A stretch of 63,895 nucleotides of DNA, filler included, from Rhabdomonas costata (taxonomy: Eukaryota): the NCBI GenBank assembly GCA_019059605.1. It is 51 parts of 51 records of this genome, joined end to end, with 100 filler letters (N's around TTAATTAATTAA, not from the genome) between each part and the next. Parts side by side here need not be neighbours in the genome. Positions count along the whole stretch, not along the records: positions 7,535 to 8,689 come from JAHMHO010025897.1; positions 8,790 to 9,944 come from JAHMHO010025898.1; positions 10,045 to 11,199 come from JAHMHO010025899.1; positions 11,300 to 12,454 come from JAHMHO010025900.1; positions 12,555 to 13,708 come from JAHMHO010025901.1; positions 13,809 to 14,961 come from JAHMHO010025902.1; positions 15,062 to 16,215 come from JAHMHO010025903.1; positions 16,316 to 17,470 come from JAHMHO010025904.1; 43 more parts are not named here. One strand, given 5' to 3'. Of this stretch, positions 7,962 through 56,371 are shown piece by piece. The notes beneath the pieces were generated by a model. That model ran no database searches and was not told the DNA's origin. It saw nothing but the letters and a program-made list of their open reading frames with translations. Numbering within the stretch: position 1 is the stretch's first letter; each line of letters opens with the position of its first letter. The position numbers and the translations under genes are program-made.

Positions 7962-8109
7962 GCACTTCACTGTGCCCCTGCGGTGGGTGGCGATTGTGCT
8001 GCTGTGCACGTTCACTGTGGTACCCGCCGTGTCACTGTGGCTCGCCTCGTGGAGAACCGGGCAGGGCGCCCTGGCCACGGTGCAGGACCTGGCACAATCC
8101 TCTCTGGAG
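7962..8109 (+). CDS. Exon encoding an N-terminal transmembrane helix plus amphipathic helix of a probable receptor-type signalling protein
   Basis: CAG|G CAC...GAG|GTGACC. Peptide HFTVPLRWVAIVLLCTFTVVPAVSLWLASWRTGQGALATVQDLAQSSLE shows the basic-then-hydrophobic TM1 pattern that precedes Cache domains. Confidence 0.6.
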
Positions 8110-9356
8110 GTGACCCCTCCGGCCTACCCCACCCCTAGTAAACGTTCAGTTTCAATCAGAATGCCAAAACGTTCGGTTTTTTCTTAAGCTTCAATTTCTT
8201 ACCTGGAAAATTACGACCAAAGCCACTTTCCACACAGTAGCGATGTTGTCTCTTTTTGACTTTTCCATGTGCCAGTCGCTCCATATATTTGGCCCTCCCC
8301 GCGCTTTGCACGACCAGCCCCGAGCCGAACGTCGGTCGCCTACGGTTCGCTCCGCCCTCCTCGGGGTACCCATCCCGTAACCTTTGTACACCTTTGACCG
8401 GGAATCTCCAGCTGCGCCATTTATGTATACATATGTTGACACATATGCAGACACTGGGATCGGAGTGAGGATGGGCGTTTCTGAAAAGAATACATGTAAG
8501 TTTGCAAAGGAGTAGTTATGTGAGGGAAAGATGGAGTGGGGTTCCAAATATTTTCTTAGTGAGTCAGGAGGCATTGCACGACCAATGGCACAAGAGTCAC
8601 TAAGAAAATATTTGGAACCCCACTCCATCTTTCCCTCACATAACTACTCCTTTGCAAACTTACATGTATTCTTTTCAGAAACCCCCACCNNNNNNNNNNN
8701 NNNNNNNNNNNNNNNNNNNNNNNNNNNNNNNNNTTAATTAATTAANNNNNNNNNNNNNNNNNNNNNNNNNNNNNNNNNNNNNNNNNNNNTTGTGGTGTGG
8801 TAAGCCCGTTATGCTCAGGCAGCGAAGCCGCAGAAGCAGCTCGTTGAGAGCTGAGACAAGAAAGCATGTGTCCCGTGAGATGACCCGCATGTAACAACGC
8901 CAAGACCTGACAGCCCGGGACAATGCTGCAGCTGCGACAGGAGGGTCAAGATGAGCTGAACCGGTGTTGTCACAAAAAACACGCTGACGCTTACTACGCG
9001 TTCAGTGAAGAGAAGCTCCCCCAATGGGTCACAAGGGGTGAGTATACACGAAGCCTCATGAATTATAGCATCCACATGAGTGAGGTGCACTAGAGTGCTC
9101 CACCGCTGATTCACCAGACACAAAGGATGGCCTCAGTAATTGCTGAAAGCAGGAAGCAGCGCATCGGCAGAAAGAATGTCCATCAGCAAGTAAAATATGA
9201 CCAGAGCAATATCAATCACAAATAGCTGTTCATCGCACAAAACAGACTGGATGCAGTTGATTCGCAATCTCACAAAAGCTATATCACCCCGCACCGCAAA
9301 ACTACATGCTTTCATTCCCTTGCTCATTTGACCGAAAAATTGGATCAGACTCACCG

Positions 9357-9684
9357 AGGTCAAGGTGAGAGTGGAGGGAGACTGATGGGAAGAAAAAGGA
9401 AAGGGAAAGCATAAGCATGATATAGCGGAGAACCCGTTCAGGGTACCCGTTCAGGGCGAATTCAGAATAGCCTGAGAGTGAACCACCGAAAACGAACCAA
9501 CAATGAATTTGCGTACAAGTGCAAGCATAATTCTCACCCTTATTATTAAGACAAGGCTTTGGGAAATAACCTGTAGACAAAGTGTGTGCAGCACAGAAGA
9601 TTCCCCACATCTCCAAAACCATTGTGGTATGAAGTGACCCGCACAAATAAGTGACTGTTATTGAGGACAGACCAAAAAGCAATC
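9357..9684 (-). CDS. Probable exons of a hydrophobic membrane protein (unidentified)
   Basis: LLFGLSSITVTYLCGSLHTTMVLEMWGIFCAAHTLST G|GTTATT...CAG|GC YSEFALNGYPERVLRYIMLMLSLSFFFPSVSLHSHLDL G|GTGAGT. Phases are compatible. No homology recognised. Confidence 0.35.
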
Positions 9685-10055: not shown

Positions 10056-10225
10056 GCTCAAATCTGCTGCTGGCTAAGGGGCGGACGAGTATGACAGGAA
10101 TAATTTAGGGGCAAAGGCCATCGGAGGCCAGTCCGCGCCGCGGCCGGAGCGTGCGGCTGGTGCGGGGACGTGACCTGCGAGCCCTTTAACAATTTTTCAA
10201 AACATGCTCCCACAGTAAAAATCGT
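10056..10225 (+). repeat. Dispersed repeat family 1, copy A
   Basis: Aligns by eye with 25275-25445: GCTCAAA..TGCTGGCTAAGG..GGGCGGAYGAGTA..TTAGGGG..GGAGGCCWGTCCGCGSCGCGGCCGGAGCGKGCRGYTGGKGCGGG..ACGTGACCTG. Confidence 0.85.
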
Positions 10226-11299: not shown

Positions 11300-12388
11300 G
11301 TGCTGCGGGACACCACATCCCTTGATCTCCGGCAAACGGAGTGCGTGGAGGCGGTCATCTCCAACGGGGGCTCCATGCTATCGCTAATCAACGACATTCT
11401 GGTACCTCACTGCCTGTGCCTTTTCCCTCTTCAATCGGTATCCTTGTGGCATCTTTCGCATCTCGTGTGCAGTATTGCGATGGAAGTTGCTGCGAGGTAT
11501 GGGTGGCGGTGTTGGGCGGTAGATTTTTTCTGGAGGGCCGTTTATTTAACACACGCACCGCCGCCCCTCTCCGCGCGGTGCGTGGGCTGTGGGCTCAGGA
11601 CTTTAGCAAGCTGGAGGCGGACCGGCTGGAGCTGGAGTTCGCGGCGTTCAGCCTGAGGGAGGTGGTGGAGCAGGCCGCGACGACGGTGCAGGTGAAGGCG
11701 GAGGAGAGGGGCCTGCAGCTTGTGGTGCGGGTGAGCCCTGAGGTTCCGCGGCAGTGTGTGGGGGACGCGACTCGGCTGAAGCGGGTTCTGCTGAACCTGC
11801 TGAGCAATGGCACGTGTGCGTAGGTTGTGTGTGTGCTTCATTGTGTGAGTCCTGTGGTTGTGCGTGTAAAGCTGAGGCGTCCATGTCCCGGGGGGTAGAG
11901 CTGGTTGGGTTGGGGCCAAAGTTGTCGTCAGCATAACGGCTATTCGACACCAGCCTTTTAGACGGTCGTACGGATTTGAGTTGTGGTTTGTGTGCATGCG
12001 TGTTTGGTCGCGTTTATTCATAATCATGTTTGTGCTTTGCTGTCATTTTGTGTTTCGTTTGTTTTTCGTTTCTGTTTCTCTCTCGCAGTTTTGTTCTTTA
12101 TGCGCCAGCCTTTGTATTTTTCTCCCCTACTGGCAACTCGATGGAGGACCTACCTTTGCACCTATGTACATACCTCGTTTCTAGGCAACTCCCTATTCCT
12201 TTGTGAAGTTGTCTTGTGTGGATGTTTTACGGATGCTTCTCCTACCTTACGTTGGCACTGATTTGGTATTACTGTGAGGCATTGGTACTCTCTCCCTTCG
12301 TGAAGTTTTCTATGATTGTGACACACACATATATTCGTGTTTGGCAGCGGTGAAGTTCACCCACGAGGGCACGGTGAGCATCACCTGC
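11300..12388 (+). CDS. Histidine kinase (HisKA C-terminal helix plus HATPase N-box), partial; exons 11300-11401, 11599-11809, 12348-~12388
   Basis: Spliced ...[33 protein letters not shown]...[32 protein letters not shown] carries the hybrid His-kinase motifs [10 protein letters not shown].E and GD..[13 protein letters not shown]..G. Intron 1 is GT-AG and intron 2 is GC-AG. Confidence 0.95.
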
Positions 12389-12950
12389 CAAACACGAATA
12401 TATGTGTGTGTCACAATCATAGAAAACTTCACGAAGGGAGGGAGTACCAAAACCNNNNNNNNNNNNNNNNNNNNNNNNNNNNNNNNNNNNNNNNNNNNTT
12501 AATTAATTAANNNNNNNNNNNNNNNNNNNNNNNNNNNNNNNNNNNNNNNNNNNNGTTGGGTGGTATCCGGTGCCTTCACCTTCACCTTGATAATACAAGC
12601 CGGAGACCATAAAACATTGCGCAAATGCAAAAAAGGGAGTGAGAAAGGTAGCACAAAATGGAAGCTCCGAGCAAGTCACAGGATACCACCCAATCCCAAT
12701 ATCCAATGGGATCAGCTGAGCAATGCATACAATTGTTTCCTGTGGTGAAATGGGCCTCCGAACCAAACAATTTGTGTAGGTGTCAACCCTTGTGATCACC
12801 TCTGTGGTTCTACACGGAAGGCCTCTGGGCGCGTTGGGGTGCTCTTAATGGGCACTAGAGCACGCCAGCGTCCCCGACGATGACCTTTTTCCCAGCCGCA
12901 GTAGGATCCGGCAGCACACAGCACGCACACGTGGGGGGGAGGGCACTTAC

Positions 12951-15394: not shown

Positions 15395-16203
15395 CATCGT
15401 TGGGACGGAGACCTACCTGCTGAACCCCATCACCCTGATGCCGATGTTCAACCGGATGGTGGTGTTCAAGCCCAACGGCGACGCGATGACCAACCCGGGG
15501 ATGCTCAACGGGGCCTACAGCCGCAGCCTGGCTTCGGGGTGGGTCTCCACCCCGGCCAACCGGTTCAACCCTGGGTACTCCGAGATCTACTTCACCCAAA
15601 CAACCCCGATCTTCCTAATCCTGGAGGTCAACGTGTGCGTCCTGGATGGCCTGGGGAACTGCGTGGGGCAGCTGGGCAAGGACCTTCTGCTTAAGTTCTT
15701 GGGGGACTTCCTGCGGAGCCTGGTGACGCAAAGCAGCCTTCTATCGCAGGGGGGCCGGGCGTTCAGCTATGAGATGAACGGGAACCTGACGGGTGCGAGC
15801 CACGGGGCGGTTTTCATCTCGTACAGCAATGGGACGAATTTGCGCCTAGCGGCGTGGCAGAGCGATGATGCCATAACTGCGAAGACGGGGCAGCTGCTTC
15901 GTCCAAGTCTCGTCCCAACGGGCGCAGGTTGGCATTTAAACGTTGCCCTGGCCTTTTTGAGTCTGAGGGCGCTACGAATCTTTTCTTCTGCTTTTATTCT
16001 GTGCTCCTATAGTTGGATTGCCTGTTTGGATGCGCCATTGTTTAGGGAATTAATCTGCTTTTCGACTTGTTTCGCAGCCGGCTGGAACTCTACGATCAAG
16101 TTCAGTTTCAGTCTTCGCGGCGAGGAATACGACCACATCGGGCAGATCATGACCCTGCCGTACGGGCTGGTGTGGCGGGTCAGTGTGGTGATCTCGCTGA
16201 CTC
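15395..16203 (+). CDS. Extracellular Cache (dCache-like) sensor domain of a receptor protein, partial; exons 15395-15927, 16078-~16203
   Basis: CVGQLGKDLLLKFLGDFLRSL...GRAFSYEMNGNLTGAS and PYGLVWRVSVVIS resemble dCache_1 motifs (GV.G.D..L..L..FL, F.....G.L.AS, GL.W..VV.I). Many N-x-S/T sequons. In-frame 150-nt GT-AG intron at 15928-16077. Confidence 0.75.
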
Positions 16204-19010
16204 GACACACCACCCNNNNNNNNNNNNNNNNNNNNNNNNNNNNNNNNNNNNNNNNNNNNTTAATTAATTAANNNNNNNNNNNNNNNNNNNNNNNNNNNNN
16301 NNNNNNNNNNNNNNNGTGTGTAGCCTTCAAACAATAGCAATTGCTCACCGCACGCCTTTGCCGCGCTGGGACCGGGGCCCAAACATTGCCCACTCACTTT
16401 CGGTCACTGCGTGCTTTACCTCCTTCGCTTTCGGACACGCTACCACCTTGCTTTGGATGGCAAGAGACAAAAGATTCGCAGTTCCATTCCATTCCTGCTG
16501 CTTCCGGAGCACTCACCACAGGATGGATGACTGTCCCCGTTTTGCTTTTCAGTAGCCCCACATCGATGACTCAGACTGTGTATTCTCCTCCCTCTCTTCC
16601 TTTCTTGACGTGGGTTTTGTTGCACAGTAGCAGGCGCCTTTGCGCAGAAGCGCAGCCTTCCGAATCTCATCGCTGCGTCAAAAAATTCTGGCTCAACATC
16701 TCCACTTTTGCAGAGCAAGCTGTAGATTAGTTTTGCGTTCTGTTTGCTCCGCGTCCCTCCCCCCGTTGCCGCTGTCCAAGAGCCGTCCGTTTCCTTCGCC
16801 CGCAAAAATCGACAAGCTTTCTTTTTCCCAAAAATTTCTTTCAAATGGAGTGGTGATTTCCGTTGGGGATGGGTTGTCACTCTTTGTGACATTTCCTTTC
16901 CCCTCGCGAACATGCAGAGCATTTCTCGCTGTGTTTGTTCAATTCTGTGCTGTTATGTGTCAAATCAATCGGCAGGAAACCTCTGCAAACGCACAGTCTG
17001 TTTGGGTTGAGGTTGGCTCTTGATTGAGACAAGGAATGCCCATTTTAATAGCACGTATGCTCGTCGTTGGACTCTTCTGAGCTTATCACGTCATTTGGTA
17101 AGTAGTGGTTATCACTTGTGTCCCTTTCAAGCCCTAGCTGCGAAGCTAAGTTCTGGTGAGCTACCCAAGTTTTTTGCAAGTAAATTTTACCATCCAGTCA
17201 ATCTCTAACAGACATATAGCATTACCCAAATTGTCCGTTTGTCCAAACAAGATGCGATTCATAAGTTGATACCCATCTGCCGTATCCCCCCTTGACTCTC
17301 ACATGTCTGTTGCAAGGCTGAGGCACCACTTGCTATTTACTTCACCATGGCTTTGAGCCGCAGGGGCTGAAAGTGCATCTCTCTGGAACGTGCGGAACTG
17401 CAATGACACCTCTTTTGCACATATCGAGCATAGTCCAATGTACCACCGCTCCCACTACTCCCCCCCAACANNNNNNNNNNNNNNNNNNNNNNNNNNNNNN
17501 NNNNNNNNNNNNNNTTAATTAATTAANNNNNNNNNNNNNNNNNNNNNNNNNNNNNNNNNNNNNNNNNNNNGGGGTGGTGTGGTAGTACTCTTGAGATGAG
17601 TTGGTTGGCCGCTTCCCGGCCTCGGAGTCCTTCTCTTCACCGAGATATGGCCCCTTCGTGGTCCCATTGTGGCCCTTTTAAGGGCATTTTTGACCTAGAT
17701 CTATGGGGCTGGAGTGCTCTTTTCGGACCATTTCAGGCCGACAAACTGAGGCTATGCTTTCGACGGGGCCTGCTTAGCATACCTAAGAGTACAGTCCAGG
17801 AGTACTTCATGCTGGCACCGGAGTGGGTCGGAATGCTTCTGTTTAGAGCCACGCTAGGGGCCATTATAGGGCCATTTTGGGGTGTTTTTGAGCCCTTTTT
17901 GCCTTTACACAGGCTTGGAAGGACCATTTGTTTTCGCAAAGGCTTTACAACGGGCTTGGGAATTGATAAGAGAAATAGCTGCACACCGTCCACTCGCATG
18001 CACGCGCGATTTTCTTTTTGGTGGTGGTCCTTCCCGCAGCTCCTTTCCGTCATTATGAACCTGTACCGCTAGGGAAGGGTCACCTCTGAAATCGGGGTAG
18101 GACCGCTCAATTTCGAATTTCCTTGACTTCGGATGCGGATTAACCGCGCGACTGTGATAATTGACGGTATGCTTGCGCGGCTTCCAGGCTTCCAAGCAGT
18201 ATCCTCCTGGTTCGCCTCTTCGCCCAGTTGTAGAAGCGGTGTAGAAGCGTGGAGATGGTGTCAGTTCAAATCGACATCGAAATTGGGTTTTGTTTTTCAA
18301 TAGGTTTTTCGACGGCCCACCGCTAACCTAACTAAAGTCTGTCACAGGCAAAGCGAAAGAAAGCGAGACCATCCAACCCATTCGAAGTTGTGCTTTTTTT
18401 TGGCGAGGCATTGGGGAGGACCAGCAAACTCCACAGTGCATTCAGAGTGGATGGGGTGAGTGGACAAAAAGAGACGAGGGCGGTTCCCCTGCCAACGTCT
18501 ACTCCCACAACCATGCACAAGCGATGCGGAAAACAGCTGAGAAATACACACCAAAAACTGTGTGGTCATTGTTTTCCTGGAAAAGTGACATCACATGTTA
18601 TTTTTCGGTCAGTTTTTCCCACAGCATCCCAACATCTGCTGTAACTTTGGTAATCCCGCTGTGTCAATTTTCTCTTGCTATTGGGAACCGTACTCGTCTC
18701 TTTTTGTCCACTCACCCCAACCAACNNNNNNNNNNNNNNNNNNNNNNNNNNNNNNNNNNNNNNNNNNNNTTAATTAATTAANNNNNNNNNNNNNNNNNNN
18801 NNNNNNNNNNNNNNNNNNNNNNNNNGTGGTGTTTGCAGTGCGAAGTGCCAGTTGGGTTTGCCCTGCACTCTGGTTTTAAAGCTGCTTTGATTACTGTATT
18901 GACCATTTGTAAACTGGTAATAGGGGCGTGAGAGAGCAATTCAGCGAACGTTAGTAACCCGGCAGGAGATTCAGAGAGATGTCTCTGGGGCCTTTGCTTG
19001 GGCCTGGGAG

Positions 19011-22592: not shown

Positions 22593-23740
22593 GTGTGGGT
22601 CGGGGTCGCCTCCGGAGCGGCGTACGTGGGTATCGGCCCCAATTCCTCCCTCCCAGCTGAGATTTCTCGGTTGTTCTGTTCCCAGGAAGGTGGCCACTGT
22701 GCCAAGTGCGTTGCCCACCCCGGAGTGCCTTTCATCGGGACAATCCAAGAACACCGGAAATCGATACCCCTGTCGACACATTTTCAGCAGACCAGGCTGA
22801 ATTGCTTCGATGCTTCGTTTGAGAGATTGTCGCACGGGCCCGATTGGAGGGACTTTGGCAATGGCAGGAGGCGACTGATATTCTCACGACTAGTCTCATA
22901 ATGTACGTGGAAGTGCCACCAAACTCATGCTGGCTATCTGGGCCCCCGATCACAACGATCGACATACGCAGAATGGCACCGCCCACGTGTCCTGGTGCAC
23001 TGGTCTTAGCGGAATGTATTGTTCCTGTTTGCAGGCAACCTGGGCTCCCGCACCAAGCTGAGCTTCAGCGTGATCGGGCCGGTCAGCCCCCTGGTGGAGG
23101 CGCTGTGCGTGCTGAACGGGAACCTCCGCACAGACATCCTGCTCAGCTCGCAGACCTGGCGCGACGTGAAGCAGATGTTCATTGGGCAGCTGGTGCTTGT
23201 ATCCTACCCCTTTCTTTATTGTGAATCGCTTAACAATCTTTGCAGTGGCCACCATCACAGTCCGCCGATCTCAATTTGTCGCTTGTTTTATAGTCGTGAT
23301 CCGGTGGTCTGGTCTCCGGACTTCGGGAATCCTTCGTTTTCGGAACCAAGAAGACTCACAATAATCAAGTGCTTCTTCCGAACTTGTGAAAGGATGTTCC
23401 CTGGGTTGGATTCCTGGGCCCAACTTGGCTTCTCCCATGTTCTCCCTTGTTGCACCGTGATGGGGGGATTGGGACCGCTTCTCCCTTTTTGCTGATTCGT
23501 CTGCAAGGGACGTTGATTGCGGAAGGGGACCTTACTTGGTTCCTGAAGAAACGGTGATTGCTCTCGTGCTTTCGTGCGGGCGACGAGCGAAGCGGGGAAC
23601 TGCTCTGCGGTCTTGTTCTGCCTCCCTGCTCACACAGGTCGCCGCTGTCGAAGTTGTGAACCCCTCCGCGGCTGCCGCTCAAGCCACGGCAGCCCCCATC
23701 CCCACCAGCACCAGCACCATCGCCTCCGCTACAGCTGCCA
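22593..23740 (+). CDS. Class III adenylyl/guanylyl cyclase-like domain, C-terminal half, degenerate; exons ~22593-22629, 23035-23192, 23638-~23740
   Basis: VGVASGAAYV-GNLGSRTKLSFSVIGPVSPLVEALCVLNGNLRTDILLSSQTWRDVK matches the class III pattern G...G...VGNLG.......V.G..VN.A.RL..LN....T.IL.S. The catalytic N and R are absent. Confidence 0.8.
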
Positions 23741-24444: not shown

Positions 24445-24812
24445 ACAACCTGCATGTGCGATGTGGTGGCATTCCAAATGGGTGCAAAGTTCGAAATTTT
24501 TCTCGCGCCTGCAGCGCATAGCTACACAAAACACGAGCCTTCTTGATACGGGTGCGAACAAAAATGGCAGGCGACAGCGCAAGACCGTATATCATCCTGC
24601 TGAACAAAGCCCCACGAAGCATGGCAATTCAGTGCTGGGTGCTCCAGTGGGGCCTCTTGTACATTTTTTCAGGGGGGGGGGCGTTAGCCGTTTAGCACCG
24701 CTAATTTTTTAAACCCCAACTCAAACCAAAATATGTATGCCTAGGGGTCAGAAAAAACAGTAATGACGATGACAATTATATAGGGTCCGAGGAGACCAGG
24801 TTTAAATGGGTC
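24445..24812 (+). repeat. Dispersed repeat family 2, copy A (long form)
   Basis: Three blocks match the reverse complement of 60556-60747: ACCTGCATGTGCGATGTGGTGGCATTCCARATGGGTGCAAARTTCGAAA, TGCGAACRAAAATGGCAGG..ATCATCCTGCTGAA, and AATTATATRGGGTCYGAGGAGACCWGGTTKAAATGRGTCA. Confidence 0.9.
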
Positions 24813-34655: not shown

Positions 34656-36469
34656 TGCTATTTTTCTCCTCAAAAGAGCGAAGTACTGGGGAACTGGGGA
34701 AAAGACGCCTCCACATCTTGCGTCCCTCCAACGAAGAACGCTCAGAGGCAGCCCAAAGCTTCAGTAATAGAGGCCATGAGCCACAGAGCCCAGAGCGGTT
34801 TAAGATGCAAAGTGCTTTGGCATGTCCCTCTGTCGGAGAGTACTGCTGATTGGGGACTGGCCTGTTGCAGGGCTTCGGCGGACGAGGGGGAAAACATCAG
34901 GGACTAGGGAAGAACGGTGAACTTTCTTGTCCAGTCTGCACGTACCCCTTTCGTGAGGGGGGGGGGGGGCTTAAAATGTGGTTATACCTGGAAAGGACTT
35001 TGGAATCACCGAGCCTGAGGGAAAGGCAACCGACCCAAAACCNNNNNNNNNNNNNNNNNNNNNNNNNNNNNNNNNNNNNNNNNNNNTTAATTAATTAANN
35101 NNNNNNNNNNNNNNNNNNNNNNNNNNNNNNNNNNNNNNNNNNTGGGTTTTTTTTTTCACATCTCAATCCCCTACCATTCAACTGCCGTTCCTTTACCTTC
35201 CCGATCCGCCCTCCCTTTCACCCTTACCTCCATTCCGTTTTGTTCCCAGAGTTACGGCCTCTCCACCACACCTTTTTTGTCACCCGAAATTCTTATCCTT
35301 TTTCAGGCTTTGTATTTGCATGTATTATGTGCTTTATGGTGCTTGCTTCTTTTGTGCTTATTTTCCTCTGCAAATCTGCGTTCCTTCCCGTCAATTGCTC
35401 TTCAGGAATTCTTTTGCCTTTGCCGCGGCGTTTTCTCCTTCTTCGACCGCTTTCATTCTGCGCTCCTCCGTGTTGTGGGCGCCGGTACTCCTGCTGCCAA
35501 CCCCTACCGATGCCGACCCCTTTTGCCGCGGCCAGGCCGTGAAGTTCTCGAAAAATCTCGTGGTACCTTTGTCGCTTTCCCCTGCCTCAATGCCTTGCTG
35601 TTTTCAGGCTCTTTCCCTTCCCCAAAAAACGCAAAACCGTTGTTCCGACGTTGGGACAACTTGTTGGCACAAAGTTTCGCTTTTGCGACGCCGTATTATG
35701 TGGGAAATCAAACCGCAATCTTAGACAACTTTTGTGAAAAGAATCAGCAGAACGCCCAATTGCCGCCCAAGCGCTCACCCTCGACGGATTGGCGCATTTT
35801 ACAAATCCTTTTTGATGGGTGGATATATATACAGCGAGACAAAGATTTGATAGAAAGCCTATAACTTGTTTGCGAAAAAGGTTGAGAAAAAATACAAAAA
35901 AGAACAAAAAAACAGAGACAACTGTCCCTAAGTCAAAGAATAAAAAGAGAGGAAATGGGGTTGAGAAAGAAAATTTTACGACCCCAAAAGGTTGAAGGTT
36001 GGAAGTTGCACCTTTGTATTAGGACCCCGTGCTGTGGACCTTTGTCTTTTATTGATCCTTCCGGTAAAAAGAATAAAGTGAAATTTGGCATTTTTAATAC
36101 CGATTTAAATCACGTTTGTGTGCAAGTGACAAAACTTCTTTCTAATTTTTGTTTTGGTATTTCCCCACAAATTCTCTATGGCGGTGTGTCGTTCACCCGC
36201 CTAGGTCAGATGAGCCAAGGCAAATAGACACGATCGTGCATTCAAAACGTACTTTTGGTTCTCCAAAATCCCCCTAAATAAAGCTGGCAAAAAAACCNNN
36301 NNNNNNNNNNNNNNNNNNNNNNNNNNNNNNNNNNNNNNNNNTTAATTAATTAANNNNNNNNNNNNNNNNNNNNNNNNNNNNNNNNNNNNNNNNNNNNTGT
36401 GTGTTGGATAAAACACTGAGCTTCGTAGAATTGGAGAAGCCAACTTGGTTCTGCAACAGACAGAGGGAC

Positions 36470-37545
36470 CTCCTGGCGGTTTCTTTTCCAGCCGTTCTCG
36501 ATTGCGGCGATCATCCTCCGCGCTGAAAGACCCAGGGTAAGCACCCCCGCCATCGTGATCCCCACCGCAGAGAACACCAGGATCCCCAGGTGCAGCAGCG
36601 TGGGTCGCTCCACCTCGGCCATGTCAACCTTCAGGACATACCTTTTTGGGACCCCGAAAGTGCCCCAAGGCATACCCGTTGCGCAATGCTTAAGTTTAGC
36701 CTATTTTTTCGCAGTGAATCTTCTCCATTGCGGTCACTGCTCCGGGTTTTTTTTTTGAAGTGTTTGGCTGCTCCTGACGTGTTCTAAGGATGATTTTTTT
36801 TGTAACATTCTACACATACACACAGTTGTGGGGATTGTCAGACGGATAAGATGGGAAATGTCAAGTATTGCCATTGCTGGTGAACTTCCAAGTGCGTCTG
36901 CGAGTGTCGCTCTGAGCAGGGCAGCGCACTTACGGTGTCGGCACGTCTCGAAGGTGCGTGATCGGACATATCTGGCTGAGTGAACCCGGCGACTGTAGCG
37001 TTGGTAGAAACGCTTGTAAATAGCGTAAAAGTAAAAGGAAAGGCCAGTTGGCCATACGAAGGCAACATTGTGTGCGGCCAAAATGTCCCCAAACGTGTCC
37101 TTCTGTCCTCATTTAGTTTGTCCGTTGAACGGCAGCCTGATTTTCGGTGGTGAACAAACCGCACCAACACGAATCCCAGAATTAGGGGATTGCATACCCC
37201 ACGGGGAGCTCGGAGGACTTCACATAGGCCCCAACAACCCGAGTCCCGCGGTAATCCCGGAAGTGCACCACCCCAGGGTCCATTTCTGTCGCGCCAGCGT
37301 ACTCCAGAGCCGCTCGCATGGCCTCAGCATCTGGGCCAGCGGATACGCAAAGGGTCTTCGAACAATCTATCGAAGGGCTGAACTTGTAATCGGAGAGGTA
37401 CTGCACAGTGGCTGCAGAGGCCGTGGTGCGTAGTTCCCCTATAGTGAGCTCGTAGGCGTGGGAGTCATCATGGTGGTTCTGGTCGTTGATGTAGGCGACG
37501 GCTTCAGCAATGCTGCGCTGCACTAGCTCCGCATCGTCGACCACA
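36470..37545 (-). CDS. Cache sensor domain plus second transmembrane helix of a receptor protein, partial; exons ~37545-37198, 36641-36470
   Basis: Spliced ...GVVHFRDYRGTRVVGAYVKSSELPVG-YVLKVDMAEVERPTLLHLGILVFSAVGITMAGVLTLGLSARRM carries the Cache C-terminal motif DYRG..V.GAY......W/G...K.D..E...P, followed by a TM helix. Confidence 0.85.
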
Positions 37546-38905
37546 CCCCCNNNNNNNNNNNNNNNNNNNNNNNNNNNNNNNNNNNNNNNNNNNNTTAATT
37601 AATTAANNNNNNNNNNNNNNNNNNNNNNNNNNNNNNNNNNNNNNNNNNNNGGGTGTGTGGGGGGTTCCAGTTTTGTTTCTGTAGGTTGCGGTTCGTGAAC
37701 CTCGTGGAGAGCAAAGTGATATGTGAGCTGAGGCCCGTTCCTTGCGAGGGGCTTGCAGATGCGTGAGTCTTTTTCTTGCTCTTCCTTCCCAACGATGACG
37801 ACGTCGACGATGATGGAACGATGATGGGGATTATCATCATTTTTGATCTTGATGATTGTGATCATTATCATCGTCATCCTAACCATCGTCGTCAGACGAC
37901 GACCATCTTTTTGCTGGATTGGAGGTGGCCCGTCAGCACCAAGTTGGCTTTGCAGGAAAGTTATGTCGTGTTTTGAGTGCGTGCACACACACACACACAC
38001 TTCTCTCACTTCAGGTCTCTTTCCTCGTTGCTGCTCACTGTGGTTGTTTCTGGGTCTTGACTACATTAATGCACGCATGGTCCGCTCTTTCGCCCGTGTT
38101 GAAAATGGGAGTGTGGGCTCGCGCTGTCATCGCTACCCAACCTTTCCTTTCCACTCGGCGGTGCGGTAGATGAGCAATGCACTCGTTGTCCCGTAACTTT
38201 TGCGCAATGTCCCCAGAACGGATGTGCACCGATTTTTGTGCCTTCACCTCACGATGTGGCACGCGGTGCCTTGTTGTGTCCAGAGCCGCCTTTATATACT
38301 TTTGCACACCTGTTTGTATTTTTGTGTCACCATCACCCAACTCTCATACACCCTCTTACCATCCGATCTGCGAATATATCTCTTGTGCAAACCACACACA
38401 GACACACACATATGCGGGCTACAACGAGCGCATATGCCACACCGGGGCAACAAACTCGGACCGCGTACGCAGCTCACCCAGCGCAGAAGGCAAGGGATCA
38501 ACCGAGGTTCCCTCTGCATCTGCTCTTTAGCCAGCGCACTATGCGCTCAAAACAGTCATACATGCACATTCCAGTGTCGTTCCAGTCCTTTCCATTTCTT
38601 CACCGATTGTGCCCATGCGTTGCGCTTCCAGTGTCCCGGTCCCCGGGGATTTTCCAAATGAAGTTGCTTACCTACGTTCTTCTCCAGTCGCCCGCGCCTC
38701 CTCTATCTTTTTCCATCCGTTTTCACTATGCTGCCTCTGCAGTTTACCTGGCCTTCATCGAGTCAGGTCGAACGGGGGCTTGTGACTTGGCTCTGCCAAC
38801 AACCCNNNNNNNNNNNNNNNNNNNNNNNNNNNNNNNNNNNNNNNNNNNNTTAATTAATTAANNNNNNNNNNNNNNNNNNNNNNNNNNNNNNNNNNNNNNN
38901 NNNNN

Positions 38906-40060: not shown

Positions 40061-42151
40061 NNNNNNNNNNNNNNNNNNNNNNNNNNNNNNNNNNNNNNNN
40101 NNNNTTAATTAATTAANNNNNNNNNNNNNNNNNNNNNNNNNNNNNNNNNNNNNNNNNNNNCCAAGTTAGCATCCATGTATTCTTATTCGTATTCGTATCC
40201 GTGTGTGTATGTTCTATGGTAGAGTGGGTAGTAGGCTGTGGGGTAACGGTGTACTGTGTGACCGATGGTGGTTCATGCTGTGTGCTCACTCCCATGGTTG
40301 AGCTGCTACTTGTTGGGGCTCTGGTGGAGTTACGAGTGCTGTGGACCCAAGGCCATGGTGTGAGTGCTGGTGCTGTCAGCCTTTGTAGTGAGTGGGTAGT
40401 GGTGCTAGGGGACCGGTGGGTGTTGTGGCCGTTGGTGGTTCATGGCATCTACTCTATCCTGGTGGCTGCATCTGTTCATGGTGAGTACGCTGGTAGTGGT
40501 GACCAGGGGTGTTGGTGTACCGTTTGGGCATGGCATTCCTTGATCTGCTATCCGCGGGAGGGCGTTACGGTGTGGCTGGATCGGTGCTTACCTTGCACTC
40601 AACCTCTTGTACATGCCTTGGCTTCCCCTCTTACGTGCGTATCATTCAACTATTGTGTACCTTGTGTAGTCTTGTGCTACAGAGTGTATCGGTAGTAGGG
40701 TGTTGTCATCCTAGCGTAGGGCATGTTGGCATCTCCTCTCCAACCTAGGCGTGGTTTACCCTAGTAGTCGAGTGTGTGTGTGTCACCTTGACTATGGTAT
40801 GGTGTTGGTGTTGGTGTTGCGGTCCGTCTCAACCATGCTCCCTGCAACCATGCTCTCTGTCTGTAGTGCTGTGTTAGTGATTGCTGTGTGTCAGTGTCCT
40901 AGGGTGTCGAGTGGTACGATGTGTGGATTTGGGGCCTCATGGTGGTTGGATGTCAGGATGTTGGTAGGGCTTGGTAAGTGCATGTTGTGTGTTGCTGTGT
41001 TGTGTGACTTTAGCGCTTCTGAAGTAGATGTTGGATGTGAGGTTGTTGGTGAGTTTGTGGTGAGTTAGAGCGTAAGGGTAACGGTATCAGCATGACTATG
41101 AGTGAAGAATGCAGTAACTCTAGCATGACTCAGAGGGAGAGAAGAGAAGAAGAGAAGAGAAAGAAACCCTCCTATTCTTACATTCCTACATCTACTTCAG
41201 AAGCGCTAAAGTCACACAACACAGCAACACACAACATGCACTTACCAAGCCCTACCAACATCCTGACATCCAACCACCATGAGGCCCCAAATCCACACAT
41301 CGTACCACCCCACACNNNNNNNNNNNNNNNNNNNNNNNNNNNNNNNNNNNNNNNNNNNNTTAATTAATTAANNNNNNNNNNNNNNNNNNNNNNNNNNNNN
41401 NNNNNNNNNNNNNNNGGTGTTTGTGCTCGACTCTTTCTCCAGGTGGCTCTCTTGGGAGGAGGTCAAACTTCATCTCAGCCAGGACAACCCACTGAACTGT
41501 AGGTGACCCGGTATCTTCAGGATCGTCAGGGGTACTGAAAGCCCCCCCCCCCCCCATTCGCCTCCTCCCAAGAGAGCCACCTGGAGAAAGAGTCGAGCAC
41601 TAAGATCCTATGCCATCTCCCCGTTTCGCGGGCTTTAACGCCCGCAGTCCCATGAGGTTTCGTATATATGAGGATAGCTTCGACCCATTTTGGTGGAGAG
41701 GTGGGCCAAGAGTAAGGCTTCCTCAAGGAAAAGAGCGATGGATGGACCCCGCTCACAACACCTACCTGACTCATAGGATGGTTAAAATATGATGTATGAA
41801 TGAAATTGGTAACTATGCTACTCAGAGTGAGCACCAACAGTTGGATTGCAGCTGTCACATTATGGCGTGTTGTGCGAGCCTCGCCAAGCATTGGGTTTCG
41901 TCCCCATTGCTTTCTCATCAGAACAAATGGCATACCCACTGTAGTCTGTGCCATGGGACAGAGCATCGCGCGAAGTGGGGGCCTCGAATGGTGGTGGTGG
42001 GGCACCAAAAACACAATCCGAGACAGAAGGCGTCCCATCTGAGCTGATGATGCCGATGAGTCACTCACCCCACGACAATGTGGCTTCCAGATTTCGGACT
42101 GTCATTGCCATTGCACAGAAAGGAGACAGGCATTCGCCGCACACAGCGGAC

Positions 42152-42408
42152 CTGTAGGAGCTGAGGGCAACCGCGGCCATGGTGAGGAACTGGCTGGTCT
42201 TGAAGGGGTAGAACAGCATGGAGTAGGCCTGGGGGACCACCAGCTGAGTGAAGTTCCGGCCGACCGTGCGGCCGTTCCACTGGAGCATCCCGTTGCCCCG
42301 GAACGCGGTGGCCGTGGTGACGATGAGCTGTTGCGAAGGCGCGAGCATCGCCAGGAAGGAGTTCTTCGTGCTCTGGATCAGCACAGCCTGCAGCTGAGAG
42401 GTCGCCTC
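42152..42408 (-). CDS. Internal exon, probably the N-terminal extracellular helix region of a sensor receptor
   Basis: TTACAG|GAG...TAC AG|GTCCGC. EATSQLQAVLIQSTKNSFLAMLAPSQQLIVTTATAFRGNGML...RNFTQ is strongly GC3-biased and helical with a sequon. Confidence 0.6.
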
Positions 42409-43657
42409 CTGTAAGGGAACGAAAGCTGGCAAAAGGGGACCAAGCCAAAAGGGGAGCAAGCCAGGACGTCCCGGTGGCGTTAAGAAGTGGCCTGTGCGAT
42501 GCAAAAAGGAGCGAGCGGGTCGTGTTTGAGTGTCAGGATTGCCCATAGTGGAAGGAGGAAAAAACACACANNNNNNNNNNNNNNNNNNNNNNNNNNNNNN
42601 NNNNNNNNNNNNNNTTAATTAATTAANNNNNNNNNNNNNNNNNNNNNNNNNNNNNNNNNNNNNNNNNNNNTGTTGTTTTTTGTGTGCTGGTGGGCGAAGT
42701 TTTGCCTCCAAAGTACACTCTCGGTTTTCTAATTTTGACAGGTTCCCCGGTCCGTTCCTGCAGGGACAGCTTTTAAGGCTCTGAGGATTGTGAGGAGCGA
42801 CAAGCCAGGGGTCAAACATAAGCCAGGCGAGTGCTCACACTGAAGTTTGATTGTGTGGCTACGGGCCCTCAGGATGTCATCAAGGACAAGCTCATGGCCG
42901 TTAGGGTATTTTTCTTTCCAAACAAAACCGTCAACTATGGGCTTCGCTCGCCCACATGTACTGAGACCAGAGGCACAACAAGGTAGAGAAAATAACTTCT
43001 GTTCGAAAGATTAATCTCTCAGTTTCCGGATGGAGCCTTGCGTTTCATTAAAATGGACAAGATTTTAGCCCTGGAGCCGTGATGAAGATGGGCCCTCCTT
43101 CCTGAATTCCGCCCACGACTCCCGAACTTCTGTCATGAATCTCTCCACCCGCTCAACCAATCCTTTGTTATCCCCGCCACCACGCGAAAGTTAATGAACT
43201 TGGGGATCGGGGGATCACTCATGGAACCCTTTGCGTAGGGATCGGCTTGTGAAGTGTTTGTAAAGTGTGTAATTTCCAGTGCTCATTCAGGAAGCGCAAG
43301 CAATGTCTCGAGACATATTTGGCATAAAGTGCCCTTAAGCCGGTTAGGGTTAAGATTAGTGTTTGTGGGACCACATGGGCGAGCCCACTCTGCTGCAATC
43401 GACGAGACAGGCTTTCCTTCATTTTCGCCCGCTTGCCTGCTTAGACACCAAAATAGCAGGGACCTTTTTGCAGTTTCCGGCTTCGAGAAAGTCATGCCGA
43501 TGAAGGGGGTCGGTCAGATCTGGCTGCCGTGTGTGGTCCCTTTCGCCGTTGTGGTGTGTTATGTGAACGTTCAGGGAATTTTTTCGTGTTTAGGAGGTGG
43601 AGGTGCATCGGATTTTTTTCTTCTTGTGGATTTCAGACCCCAAGTGCGTTTATCCAG

Positions 43658-45191: not shown

Positions 45192-46046
45192 GCTATTGTC
45201 ATGGAGGTGGACCACAGTTGACGGTGAATTGGTGAATTGCATCTTGGAAAGAATGCCATCAAAAGTGAATGTCCGCTGAGCAGCATTTCTCTAAAGAGGA
45301 ATCCATTGGTCTAAACTCTTGCATTGGATTGCAGTGGAATGATATCGAAATGGATTCGTACGATTCTGGTTGATTGCGCGGGTTGCTCGACCGCGTCGAC
45401 CGAGTGTCGAGGTTTTCCTTGTGATGAAAGGTACCGGAATCTGAACCGTTTTGAAGCATCCAGCGAAACTTGCTGCGTAGTCACTGACCAGTCTCATGCT
45501 CTGTTCTGCGCCACGCACTCGGTTTGCAGGTCTCCAAAATGAACTCCGACGAAGCGATGGCTTCTGTTCAGTTTGAAGTAAATGCGTGTCTCTCTCTCTG
45601 TGTGTCTACCTGGGAATAGAGGTGAAAGGTTGTTCACCGATGTTCATGATAGATGACAGGACATCAGAGTTCCACGTCTTCTTCGCTCCCTTTGAGACTT
45701 GTTTCTGATGCGCACACAAATGTTCAGAAGTTTTGGAAGTTGGAAGGACTTTTGGAAGTTTGAAGGCACCGCATGAGGGAAGACTTGACCTCTCTGAATG
45801 TTTTTGAGGACTGCGTTTGCTGTGTTTTTGCGGCCAGTCGCCAAGCAGGGAAGTGGGTTTTTTCTATTGTGCAGTTGTTCTCTGCTCTGCACAGATCGGA
45901 ATCGGCATTCACACTGGAGACATTATGTTGGGAACCATTGGCGAGCCTGAGCGGATGGACACCACGGTGATCTCGGAGACCATGGTTGTTGCGTCAAGAC
46001 TGAACTCCTTGAACCGCCTCTTGGGCACAACCATGCTCCTGACAAG
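45192..46046 (+). CDS. Bacterial-type class III adenylyl cyclase domain, partial; exons ~45192-45206, 45530-45577, 45895-46046
   Basis: AIVME-VSKMNSDEAMASVQFE-IGIGIHTGDIMLGTIGEPERMDTTVISETMVVASRLNSLNRLLGTTMLLT matches IGIGIH.G..MLGTIG...RMD.TVISD.VN.ASRLE.L. The last donor is AG|GCACCC. Confidence 0.9.
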
Positions 46047-55000: not shown

Positions 55001-55418
55001 ATCTCTTCCTTACTTTTAATGAAGATCCTCGTCCTGCAGAGGGACCTTCACCTTGTCCCCAGGCGCAGCAGCCTCAGCGGGCTTCTTCGCGGGCTCCTTA
55101 GCGGCCTCCACACACCCNNNNNNNNNNNNNNNNNNNNNNNNNNNNNNNNNNNNNNNNNNNNTTAATTAATTAANNNNNNNNNNNNNNNNNNNNNNNNNNN
55201 NNNNNNNNNNNNNNNNNGGGTGGGGGGTGGTGTGAATAACACATTCCGGTAAAAGTTCACCAATGCCTCGGAAAAAAGGGGATAACGGGAAGACAGGGTT
55301 CAGCTAAAAAAGGGCACTGAAGAAGGGGCACGGAAATGATGAAGGAAAGGAGACAGAGAGATGGCATCCCCTCCACTACATCATCACCACTTCCTACGCC
55401 CAATCAATACTCCGCTTT

Positions 55419-56371
55419 TCACAGCCCGGGGGACGGGGGAACCTCAGCCGGAACCGGGAGGGCAGACAGACAGAGCATTGCGATTTCCAGCAGCTGCTCA
55501 CGGGTCACGGGCTTGCACAGGAAGGAGTCCGCGCCAGCCTGCCAAAGAATTATGAGGATCTTTTTGTGCACAAAGGCATTTTGACAAGAATTTTGTTTAA
55601 AGCACTCCCACGGTGCAGCAGCACAAACTTACCCAATGTGTCCGAATTGTCAGCGATGCAGCCTTCCAAACGAACGAATCCGTACATGCCTGCCCCCTCA
55701 TCCGCTCATTCCCTCATATGCAGCAGAGTGTCAATTTGACGACAGCTGCTGCCTTTGCCAGGAAGCGATACACTCACTGTTCGCAAGTTCCAAGGTCAGC
55801 ACCAAGCCCCTAAGTCTCCCACGAGGTGCTCCATTGGAAAAGATGTGGTCTGGGATGCTCACGGCCTATCGCAAAATACCGTGTAGCCTCCTTCGGCTTG
55901 GAAGACGGGGAGAACAGGTCTCAGATTGCAATCCAATTTCCTATTTGGCGCTGGCACGAGTTTAAAGGCACACTGAATGGCTCGCTGCAACGCTCTGCAA
56001 TATCCTGGATAAACTTGGTGAAAATCCACCCTGTTCCAAAGACTTTCGAATTGCTCACTTCTGCGTTTGGCTTCAGTTATAACTTGTACAAACATTCCAG
56101 AAGACTAAGCCGTGCGACGCATAGCAGGAAAGAAGGCCGCTGCACTGCACCTGAACACAGCTGTACCGTGTGTCCTCTCCGGCATCCCCGCTCAGCACAG
56201 TGATCATCGGCACACGCCGGGAAGAAGCAGCTTGGGCGGAGCCCCTATCGTGCACCGGTGGTGCCAGTGGCGGTCGCCGTGAGGGCCCCTCAGCAGCCGA
56301 AGGCCCCTCGGAACGGATCTTCGCCGCCAGCTGCAGCCCGTCCATCGGCCCACTGAGGTTGAGGTCGGTCA
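55419..56371 (-). CDS. C-terminal response-regulator receiver (REC) domain; exons 56371-56151, 55538-55419 (TGA)
   Basis: TDLNLSGPMDGLQLAAKIR...VPMITVLSGDAGEDTRYSCVQ-AGADSFLCKPVTREQLLEIA retains the phospho-Asp, MDG, Ser/Thr and KP motifs. GT-AG intron 56150-55539. Confidence 0.92.

What the first reader, a model, noticed from the sequence alone, without database searches (positions are those of the whole stretch)
7962..56371. Bacterial-style sensor/His-kinase/cyclase signalling repertoire that appears greatly expanded in an intron-rich protist
Seen: about 9 of 51 unlinked contigs carry spliced pieces of one pathway type. These are a TM1 exon (7962), HisKA-HATPase (11300), Cache domains (15395, 36470), a probable sensor helix exon (42152), class III cyclase pieces (22593, 24246, 45192) and a REC domain (55419). 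Established: Cache-TM-kinase/cyclase-REC architectures are typical of bacterial two-component and cAMP signalling. The spliceosomal introns exclude bacterial contamination. Inference: since the contigs appear to be selected only by size, this density implies a very large gene family and possibly a poorly described eukaryotic chemosensory system. This is the best candidate for a novel system here.
Basis: partly seen in the sequence, partly recalled or inferred. Interest (0 to 1): 0.75.

Follow-up and report, generated by a model that had tools for sequence, protein, structure and literature searches.

The report
Euglenid sensor-kinase and cyclase gene pieces
Several of these short, unlinked contigs from a euglenid-like protist carry intron-split pieces of bacterial-type sensor kinases, receiver domains and cAMP-forming cyclases, a gene repertoire already reported as greatly expanded in Euglena.

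Summary
The window is 51 unlinked contigs of about 1155 bp, most likely from a euglenid near Rhabdomonas costata. Contig 10 holds three exons of a dCache-type histidine kinase, 86% identical to the R. costata protein RCo026071. Contig 13 holds a divergent dCache_1-like sensor. Contig 37 holds a class III cyclase exon. Contig 45, on the minus strand, holds a receiver domain split by a GT-AG intron. Three more assignments (contigs 7, 19, 30) sit on coding-like exons with only weak or no family support. Contig 34 has a clear exon of unknown family. The piece on contig 20 is a dispersed repeat. The introns rule out bacterial contamination for the verified pieces. Four of 51 contigs (95% CI 2-19%) is a high density and fits a large family, but no genome-wide count was possible because no genome is held. 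Expansion of Cache/HAMP cyclases and of receiver plus kinase-ATPase proteins is already published for Euglena gracilis (PMC6366073). This is therefore a new member of a known kind: real and probably large, but not a new system. Interest is moderate to low.

The parts
11300..11401 (+). Histidine kinase exon covering the second half of the HisKA domain. It is open at the contig start, so the H-box lies off the contig.
   Evidence: tblastn P0001 aa 461-494, 85% id; Pfam HisKA E 0.0012, profile 26-58 of 66, below cut-off; own HisKA HMM E 2e-4
11402..11598 (+). Intron of 197 nt, GT...AG
   Evidence: Gap between collinear P0001 matches; boundaries GTACCT...CTCAG
11599..11811 (+). Histidine kinase exon: the end of HisKA, the linker and the start of HATPase_c (N-box LLNLLSN)
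   Evidence: P0001 aa 495-565, 86% id, E 9e-31; 409 database hits with E<=0.001, nearly all HisKA+HATPase_c proteins
11812..12349 (+). Second intron, about 538 nt. There is no plain GT-AG at the junction implied by the protein alignment; it may be GC-AG or nonconventional.
12350..12391 (+). Histidine kinase exon, HATPase_c continued (VKFTHEG...)
   Evidence: P0001 aa 566-578, 85% id; own HATPase HMM positions 16-31
15395..15927 (+). Exon of a divergent dCache_1-like extracellular sensor
   Evidence: phmmer: 13 hits, including two R. costata proteins, and bacterial Cache-HAMP-HK-REC proteins matched inside their Pfam dCache_1 stretch; sensor HMM E 8.5e-11; the first 10 Foldseek rows are all bacterial chemoreceptor ligand-binding domains, E 0.03-0.095; GC3 0.84
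15928..16077 (+). Probable in-frame intron of 150 nt without stops, GT...AG
   Evidence: This stretch is absent from relatives P0130/P0132/P0133; boundaries
16078..16214 (+). Second sensor exon, running off the contig
   Evidence: Family HMM E 6e-13; P0137 59% id
45895..46044 (+). Class III adenylate/guanylate cyclase exon (core strand through the Asn-Arg region). Val stands where relatives have Asn.
   Evidence: 8 of 8 database relatives carry Guanylate_cyc; tblastn 2e-11 to 3e-8; Pfam Guanylate_cyc E 0.0013, 18.8 bits against a cut-off of 21.9; solved cyclases such as 1wc1 at E 1e-4
56151..56369 (-). Receiver (REC) domain exon, from the phospho-acceptor region (TDLNLSGPMDG) to alpha4. It has a roughly 30-residue low-complexity insert and is open at the contig end.
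   Evidence: Own REC HMM pieces; joined model 33.9 bits
55539..56150 (-). Intron of 612 nt, GTGCAG...TTTGGCAG
55422..55538 (-). Last REC exon (AGADSFLCKPVTREQLLE...), followed by a stop at 55419-55421
   Evidence: Own REC HMM positions 90-110; tblastn E 0.009
7962..8106 (+). Possible N-terminal transmembrane exon of a P0001-like receptor (weak)
   Evidence: CAG acceptor just before 7962; local alignment to P0001 aa 3-42 scores 43, reached by 4 of 2000 shuffles; GC3 0.80-0.83; no Pfam hit
23010..23222 (+). Coding-like exon, possibly a degenerate cyclase-homology piece (weak)
   Evidence: GC3 0.83-0.92; Smith-Waterman 45-48 against P0121/P0124 cyclase domains, rank 2-4 of 1599 pieces; no Pfam or PDB hit
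36467..36673 (-). Coding-like exon with a 24-residue hydrophobic stretch; family not established
   Evidence: GC3 0.78-0.80; PDB hits are membrane helices only, E>=0.077; Smith-Waterman 52 against the P0121 cyclase domain, within the noise tail
37185..37550 (-).
   Evidence: 0 of 430 candidates scored; no Pfam or PDB support; AF2 pLDDT 39
42115..42438 (-). Strongly coding-like exon of unknown family
   Evidence: GC3 0.85-0.97 over 108 codons; no Pfam, PDB or profile match
24445..24604 (.). Dispersed repeat, not a cyclase piece
   Evidence: 74% nucleotide identity to 60603-60747 on contig 49, matching in several frames

Best explanation
The window samples the nuclear genome of a euglenid at or near Rhabdomonas costata. 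At least four of its 51 unlinked contigs carry intron-split exons from separate genes of one signalling repertoire:
- a membrane dCache_1-HisKA-HATPase_c sensor kinase (contig 10);
- a divergent dCache_1-TM-HAMP receptor whose output domain is not seen (contig 13);
- a class III nucleotidyl cyclase whose nearest relatives are PAS-HK-REC-cyclase proteins (contig 37);
- a receiver domain (contig 45).

Inferred mechanism, not shown here. A ligand binds the extracellular Cache module. The signal passes through the membrane helix and HAMP to a histidine kinase. The phosphoryl group moves to a receiver Asp. Output is at least partly cAMP synthesis by linked class III cyclase domains, either direct (Cache-HAMP-cyclase) or through a relay (HK-REC-cyclase).

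These genes belong to the large, lineage-specifically expanded euglenid family already catalogued in Euglena gracilis.
For: Shown:
- Contig 10. Three collinear exons are 85-86% identical to R. costata RCo026071, whose Pfam domains are dCache_1, HisKA and HATPase_c.
- Contig 13. The close relatives include RCo040101 and RCo004323. The distant relatives are matched inside their dCache_1 domains. The sensor HMM gives E 8.5e-11. The model's best Foldseek rows are bacterial chemoreceptor ligand-binding domains. Relative P0132 superposes on dCache_1-HAMP kinases and cyclases at TM 0.69-0.77.
- Contig 37. The exon matches 8 of 8 cyclase-bearing proteins and solved class III cyclases.
- Contig 45. The two best REC-HMM pieces among 2502 six-frame pieces lie collinear on one strand. 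Joined across a GT-AG intron they score 33.9 bits.
- Verified exons have GC3 0.69-0.93 against GC2 of about 0.46.
- Paralogy. The window's copies differ from every database protein (at most 86% and 73% identity), so each family has several members.

From the literature: expansion of NCIII cyclases with TM/HAMP/Cache1, and of REC plus H-ATPase proteins, in E. gracilis (PMC6366073, passages).
Against: - The contigs are unlinked, so no two pieces are shown to belong to one gene or one pathway.
- Five of the nine claimed pieces could not be assigned to a family.
- Key catalytic parts lie off the contigs: the H-box His, the G-boxes, the cyclase metal-binding Asp residues and the N-terminal acidic residues of REC.
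- The cyclase exon has Val where all 8 relatives and the solved cyclase 1wc1 have Asn. That copy may be inactive or a pseudogene.
- No Hpt piece was found. tblastn with 120 kinases, many of which carry Hpt, hit nothing else at E below 0.009.
- Pfam itself gives only sub-threshold scores for the window's exons.
- Family size rests on 4 of 51 contigs and on another species' literature, not on a count.
- Expression could not be tested.
Confidence: 0.72

Rival explanations
1. The family is of ordinary size. Four hits in 51 contigs would then be sampling luck, or a bias of which regions assemble to about 1.15 kb, and the other five claims would be over-reading of short open frames.
For: The 95% interval for 4 of 51 reaches down to 2.2%. 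5 of 9 assignments failed or stayed weak. A relaxed 30-codon GC3 criterion is met by 91 of 255 shuffled contigs, so short coding-like stretches are cheap. A published draft of the nearest species came from amplified DNA with uneven coverage (PMC8219788).
Against: Even 2% of some 36,000 contigs of at least 1 kb would be hundreds of contigs. Of the 526 ORFs scanned, only one hit unrelated to this repertoire passed a Pfam cut-off. Several distinct paralogues exist for both the kinase and the sensor. The sister lineage is reported as massively expanded.
Confidence: 0.2
2. The pieces are bacterial contamination of a non-axenic, amplified DNA sample.
For: The nearest non-euglenid relatives are bacterial-type proteins on long metagenome contigs. 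The paper on the nearest species reports bacterial DNA in one sample (PMC8219788).
Against: The exons are interrupted by 150-612 nt stretches with GT-AG ends, most with in-frame stops. A transcript-derived euglenid protein bridges two of them. The best hits are euglenid proteins. Codon GC3 is uniform across the pieces.
Confidence: 0.03
3. Some or most pieces are decaying pseudogene copies of an expanded family rather than working genes.
For: Val replaces the conserved Asn in the cyclase exon. The contig 19 and 30 pieces, if they are cyclase-like, lack the Asn-Arg pair. None of the window's copies has an identical transcript-derived protein in the databases searched.
Against: The exons are open and keep the strong GC3 bias of coding sequence. 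The REC exons keep the Asp region, the Ser and the Lys-Pro. Class III cyclases commonly pair a catalytic with a degenerate domain (recalled, not tested). The published transcriptome and genome of the nearest species overlap only partly (43.5% of RNA reads map).
Confidence: 0.12

Closest known systems
Expanded signalling families of Euglena gracilis: NCIII (class III) cyclases with TM, HAMP and Cache1 domains, and a REC orthogroup with an H-ATPase domain (Ebenezer et al. 2019, PMC6366073; passages read, supplements not seen)
   Same: Same domain set (Cache, HAMP, class III cyclase, REC, kinase ATPase), the same phylum-level lineage (euglenids), lineage-specific paralogue expansion, and intron-bearing nuclear genes.
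   Different: A different organism: a heterotrophic euglenid near Rhabdomonas, whose own genome paper does not mention kinases or cyclases (0 occurrences). A dCache_1-HisKA-HATPase_c kinase is documented directly here (P0001 and contig 10). Orthology to the Euglena families was not tested.
Bacterial dCache_1-HAMP-(PAS)-HisKA-HATPase_c-REC hybrid kinases and PAS-HK-REC-cyclase proteins (P0138-P0140, P0121-P0126)
   Same: Domain order and sequence: 35-55% identity to the kinase exon, 47-53% to the cyclase exon and 27-35% to the Cache exon.
   Different: The window's genes have spliceosomal-type introns and euglenid codon bias. The Cache module is too divergent for Pfam's dCache_1 model. The cyclase exon lacks the conserved Asn.
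Histidine kinases and cyclases of Naegleria gruberi, with 24 HKs in the eukaryote-wide survey (PMC6324907); NCIII relatives noted in PMC6366073
   Same: A free-living discoban protist with many bacterial-type HKs and receptor cyclases. A Heterolobosea cyclase cluster superposes on the P0132 sensor at TM 0.76.
   Different: That survey found few known sensor domains in excavate HKs, does not mention Cache (0 occurrences), and sampled no euglenid (Leishmania and Trypanosoma: 0 HKs).
Eukaryotic dCache_1 proteins of the calcium-channel alpha2delta/CACHD1 type (PMC8915833, passages)
   Same: A dCache_1 fold; presence in Euglenozoa is reported.
   Different: Those proteins carry a VWA insertion and are not kinases or cyclases. 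P0001 shows dCache_1 directly followed by HisKA/HATPase_c, with no VWA hit.

Membership tests
Two-component histidine kinase (HisKA + HATPase_c) | HisKA dimerisation/phosphotransfer helices | tested here: met
   Contig 10 exons align to P0001 aa 461-501, inside its HisKA (436-501, 79.6 bits); Pfam HisKA E 0.0012 on exon 1, below cut-off
Two-component histidine kinase (HisKA + HATPase_c) | Phospho-accepting His (H-box) | not testable with these tools
   It lies upstream of the contig start (P0001 aa before 461)
Two-component histidine kinase (HisKA + HATPase_c) | ATP-binding N-box and G-boxes of HATPase_c | tested here: inconclusive
   The N-box region is present (P0001 aa 549-578). The G-boxes lie beyond the last exon seen.
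dCache_1 extracellular sensor | Sequence membership in Pfam PF02743 | tested here: not met
   No Pfam hit for the contig 13 frame, even at E<=1
dCache_1 extracellular sensor | Homology to proteins whose matched stretch is dCache_1, and a PDC/Cache fold | tested here: met
   P0138-P0140 at E 2e-5 to 3.5e-4 over 1.84 billion proteins; own sensor HMM E 8.5e-11; Foldseek best rows are dCache ligand-binding domains, but none with E<=0.001; Atlas structure rows for relative P0132 name dCache_1
dCache_1 extracellular sensor | Followed by a transmembrane helix and a cytoplasmic signalling domain | tested here: inconclusive
   Relatives P0132/P0133/P0137 show a hydrophobic helix and a weak HAMP (E 0.1-0.17). 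The window's copy runs off the contig.
Class III nucleotidyl cyclase (Guanylate_cyc) | Cyclase homology domain | tested here: met
   Pfam gives 18.8 bits against a cut-off of 21.9 for the 51-residue exon alone.
Class III nucleotidyl cyclase (Guanylate_cyc) | Transition-state Asn-Arg pair | tested here: not met
   Arg is kept and Asn is replaced by Val (VISETMVVASR against VISDAVNLASR in relatives). The role of these residues is recalled, not tested.
Class III nucleotidyl cyclase (Guanylate_cyc) | Metal-binding Asp pair and substrate-specifying residues | not testable with these tools
   The upstream part of the domain is not on the contig
Response regulator receiver (REC) | Receiver fold with conserved Asp region, Thr/Ser and Lys | tested here: met
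   The joined exons score 33.9 bits on an HMM of 95 REC domains, positions 53-110 of 111. Ser stands at the conserved Thr column and Lys-Pro is conserved. The Asp region TDLNLSGPMDG was read by eye. Pfam and PDB gave no hit for the single exons.
Response regulator receiver (REC) | N-terminal acidic pocket residues | not testable with these tools
   Off the contig end
Phosphorelay with Hpt | An Hpt domain | tested here: not met
   No Hpt-region match from 120 kinases, many with PF01627, at E<=0.1. 59 kb is too little sequence to show absence.

The most novel reading that the evidence does not exclude
A heterotrophic, osmotrophic euglenid devotes several percent of its assembled gene space to bacterial-type dCache receptors coupled to His-Asp phosphorelay and class III cyclases. 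That would mean hundreds of genes or more, possibly the largest two-component-type repertoire of any eukaryote. It would include relay-to-cAMP proteins of the HK-REC-cyclase kind and a euglenid-specific, Pfam-invisible dCache subfamily. Together these would serve as the cell's main chemosensory system for dissolved nutrients.
Probability: 0.2. Interest if true: 0.6.

Novelty: new member of a known kind. Interest (0 to 1): 0.35.

Why it matters
Euglenids are a gap in surveys of eukaryotic two-component signalling. The eukaryote-wide histidine kinase survey sampled only trypanosomatids from Euglenozoa and found none (PMC6324907).

Direct genomic evidence shows intron-bearing dCache kinases, receivers and class III cyclases in a heterotrophic euglenid, at high density. 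This extends the expansion reported for Euglena gracilis to a non-photosynthetic relative, so the expansion would predate or be independent of plastid acquisition.

The work also flags a divergent dCache subfamily that Pfam does not recognise, so domain counts based on Pfam alone would underestimate the family. None of this amounts to a new mechanism.

Tried and rejected
- Whole-genome family counts were not possible because no genome is held.
I sent stop-free frames instead. Frames under 50 aa (claimed contigs) or under 62 aa (the other contigs) were not scanned.
- The Atlas did not hold the contig 30 frame. A stored relative of contig 13 was used instead.
- Contig 30 as Cache. There was no homologue among 430 candidates, no PDB or Pfam support and an unusable single-sequence model with pLDDT 39. 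Its lower exon aligns about equally weakly to a cyclase strand and to membrane helices. It is left unassigned.
- Contig 19 as cyclase. My own cyclase HMM gave nothing on the single pieces. A script-joined model reached only 11.5 bits, and Smith-Waterman 57 after choosing among 27 splice pairs. It is suggestive only.
- Contig 34 against the Cache family profile: hhalign probability 0.4%.
- Contig 16, 19507-19611(-), as a second HisKA piece: E 0.04-0.06 only, with no Pfam hit.
- Rfam and tRNA scans of the window found nothing.
- Earlier-findings look-ups found nothing.
- A 30-codon GC3 exon detector was too permissive, since 91 of 255 shuffled contigs passed. It was replaced by a 60-codon version, which 4 of 510 shuffles passed.
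- One script used a wrong search string and printed a long raw translation; it was redone. One search used a splice coordinate off by one and was corrected.
Full report
WHAT THE WINDOW IS

The 63,895 bases are 51 separate contigs of 1153-1158 bp. Each pair is joined by 44 N, the stop-in-all-frames spacer TTAATTAATTAA and 44 N. Contig GC runs from 0.44 to 0.58. No whole genome is held for the window, so everything below rests on 59 kb of unlinked sequence.

Two independent genes have their best database matches in EukProt proteins of Rhabdomonas costata. Contig 10 matches RCo026071 at 86% identity. Contig 13 matches RCo040101 and RCo004323. The published draft of that species is described as similarly fragmented, with N50 1194 bp, GC 51.6% and amplified DNA (PMC8219788, passages). 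I take the organism to be a euglenid at or near R. costata. No database protein is identical to any window exon, so the hits are paralogues or a close relative's orthologues.

CHECKING THE NINE CLAIMS

Pfam on all 122 stop-free frames of at least 50 aa from the nine claimed contigs gave only one relevant hit. This was Guanylate_cyc on contig 37, E 0.0038 and 17.3 bits, below the 21.9 cut-off. That low yield reflects short exons rather than absence, as the following shows.

Contig 10 (claimed HisKA-HATPase): confirmed.
- The 73-residue frame 11599-11817 found 409 proteins at E<=0.001. These are nearly all HisKA+HATPase_c kinases, led by P0001 = RCo026071 (E 7e-27).
- P0001 aligns in three collinear pieces: aa 461-494, 495-565 and 566-578, at 11300-11401, 11599-11811 and 12350-12388.
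- Pfam places HisKA at 436-501 and HATPase_c from 549 in P0001, with dCache_1 at 46-234.
- The first intron is GT...AG. The second has no plain GT-AG at the implied junction.

Contig 13 (claimed Cache): confirmed as a divergent dCache_1-like sensor.
- phmmer of the 321-aa frame against 1.84 billion representatives gave 13 hits.
- Six of these are close relatives (48-70% identity), which are short proteins without Pfam domains. Two of them are R. costata proteins.
- Three are distant hits (E 2e-5 to 3.5e-4). These are Cache-HAMP-(PAS)-HisKA-HATPase-REC proteins, matched inside their Pfam dCache_1 stretch.
- An HMM of four such sensor regions hits the frame at E 8.5e-11 among 2502 six-frame pieces.
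- An AlphaFold model built from an 11-row alignment has mean pLDDT 66, and 75-90 over residues 61-170. Its first ten Foldseek rows are all bacterial chemoreceptor ligand-binding domains (PctD, TlpQ, PacA, McpU, Tlp3). These have E 0.03-0.095, with none at or below 0.001.
- Relative P0132 superposes on dCache_1-HAMP kinases and cyclases at TM 0.69-0.77.
A 150-nt GT-AG stretch that relatives lack separates it from a second exon.

Contig 37 (claimed cyclase): confirmed, but at 45895-46044 rather than 45192.
- All 8 database hits carry Guanylate_cyc. Six are PAS-HisKA-HATPase-REC-cyclase proteins and two are 7TMR-DISM-cyclase-REC proteins.
- tblastn gives 2e-11 to 3e-8. Solved class III cyclases match at E 1e-4 to 5e-3.
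- The exon reads VISETMVVASR where the relatives read VISDAVNLASR. The conserved Asn is Val.

Contig 45 (claimed REC): confirmed, on the minus strand.
- An HMM built from 95 receiver domains of session proteins puts its two best-scoring pieces of the whole window on this contig. They lie on the same strand and in domain order.
- Joined in a script across a 612-nt GTGCAG...GGCAG intron, they score 33.9 bits over HMM positions 53-110. Ser stands at the conserved Thr column and Lys-Pro is kept.
- Single exons gave no Pfam or PDB hit.

Contig 7 (claimed TM1 exon): weak support. A CAG acceptor precedes 7962. The hydrophobic exon aligns to P0001 residues 3-42 with score 43, reached by 4 of 2000 shuffles, while P0134 and P0132 gave nothing.

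Contig 19 (claimed cyclase): weak support.
- 23010-23222 is clearly coding-like (GC3 0.83-0.92).
- It aligns without gaps to the same cyclase segment as the contig 37 exon.
- Its Smith-Waterman scores (45-48) rank only 2nd to 4th of 1599 pieces, next to noise at 41-49.
- There is no Pfam or PDB hit.
- A script-joined model reaches 11.5 bits on my narrow cyclase HMM.

Contig 30 (claimed Cache): not shown. Two coding-like minus-strand exons exist, but no homologue or domain was found.

Contig 34 (claimed sensor helix): not shown.

Contig 20 (claimed cyclase): rejected. The region is a repeat shared with contig 49 at 74% nucleotide identity.

IS THE DENSITY MEANINGFUL?

- The same four HMMs (REC, cyclase, HisKA, HATPase) were run over all 2502 six-frame pieces of all 51 contigs. 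For these families the survey is unbiased. Hits fall on contigs 10, 37 and 45 only, plus one weak HisKA-like piece on contig 16.
- Pfam on 404 further frames of at least 62 aa from the other 42 contigs gave one hit above a curated cut-off, a malic enzyme on contig 36. The few other hits were sub-threshold.
- A 60-codon stop-free GC3 criterion marks 18 of 51 contigs as holding coding-like sequence, against 4 of 510 shuffled contigs.
- Three of those 18 (contigs 10, 13, 37) are verified signalling pieces. Contig 45 has shorter exons and is not among the 18.
- Four of 51 is 7.8%, with a 95% interval of 2.2-18.9%.
- If the contigs are a size-ranked, otherwise random sample, this points to a family of at least many dozens and plausibly hundreds of genes. 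That step is inference. It depends on unknown gene spans and on assembly bias, and it could not be checked.

MECHANISM

Shown: the domains, their intron-split eukaryotic gene structure, and the existence of paralogues.

Inferred from what these families do elsewhere:
- ligand binding at the Cache module;
- transmission through the membrane helix and HAMP;
- kinase autophosphorylation and transfer to a receiver Asp;
- cAMP synthesis as one output.

The last point is suggested by the nearest relatives of the cyclase exon, which are HK-REC-cyclase proteins. It is also suggested by the Cache/HAMP cyclases reported in Euglena. No linkage between any two window pieces is shown.

WHAT IS ALREADY KNOWN

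- Ebenezer et al. 2019 (PMC6366073; abstract and passages read, supplements not available) state that signal-transduction families are massively expanded in E. gracilis. They name NCIII cyclases with TM, HAMP and Cache1 domains, and a REC orthogroup whose Euglena members carry an H-ATPase domain.
- Gumerov et al. 2022 (PMC8915833, passages) list Euglenozoa among lineages with dCache_1 proteins.
- The eukaryote-wide histidine kinase survey (PMC6324907, passages) sampled no euglenid and does not mention Cache.
- The R. costata paper has no occurrence of histidine kinase, cyclase, two-component or Cache.
- Full-text searches for 'Cache domain' with 'Euglena' found no paper. 'euglenid' with 'histidine kinase' found 11 papers. 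Judged from the search listing alone, with only PMC6366073 opened, none is a dedicated study.

VERDICT

The biological picture is right in outline: bacterial-type sensor, kinase, receiver and cyclase genes, spliced and numerous. It is, however, the known euglenid expansion seen in another species, not a new system.

Noticed in passing
window 1545-1802 (+), contig 2: An exon of a GH16 endo-beta-1,3-glucanase (laminarinase). It matches solved GH16 enzymes at E 7.4e-5 and has GC3 0.85-0.90, but Pfam missed it at E<=0.01. It may bear on paramylon turnover.
   Followed up: partly
window 44186-44434 (-), contig 36: A malic enzyme N-terminal domain exon (Pfam E 1.3e-7, 32.1 bits). It is the only Pfam hit above a curated cut-off among the 526 frames scanned.
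   Followed up: no
window 40904-41035 vs 41184-41315; 53975-54035 vs 54231-54291; 2062-2122 vs 2350-2410; 41420-41462 vs 41561-41603; 21342-21384 vs 21476-21519; 18448-18488 vs 18683-18723: Near-perfect inverted duplications (93-100% identity) within single contigs, three of them reaching the contig's end. They look like chimeric artefacts of whole-genome amplification rather than biology (amplified DNA is reported for the nearest species in PMC8219788).
   Followed up: no
window 24445-24604 / 60603-60747; 35261-35397 / 62348-62491; 17875-18005 / 52472-52605; 10079-10177 / 25320-25406: Four pairs of contigs share 73-77% identical stretches of 100-160 nt, which are dispersed repeats of unknown type.
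   Followed up: no
window 11812-12349, contig 10: The second intron of the kinase gene has no plain GT-AG at the junction implied by the protein alignment. A GC-AG reading would give the common N-box LLSNAVKFT. It could be a nonconventional euglenid intron.
   Followed up: partly
window 42115-42438 (-), contig 34; 13001-13300 (-), contig 11; 14373-14609 (-), contig 12: Long stop-free stretches with GC3 0.81-0.97, which are very probably exons. The scanned frames covering them gave no Pfam hit. For contig 34 there was also no PDB or Cache-profile match.
   Followed up: partly
P0001 (R. costata RCo026071), residues about 152-160: The Cache domain of the kinase paralogue reads FDSHLRPWY. This resembles the N-terminal half of the amino-acid-binding motif YxxxxRxWY described for dCache_1AA domains (motif from PMC8915833; sequence). 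The contig 13 subfamily has RFNPGY at the place I judged by eye to be equivalent.
   Followed up: no
window 56220-56300 (-), contig 45: The receiver domain carries a Pro/Ala/Ser-rich insert of about 30 residues between the helix after the Asp region and the next strand. It is in frame and free of stops. Whether it is a loop or a small retained intron is open.
   Followed up: no
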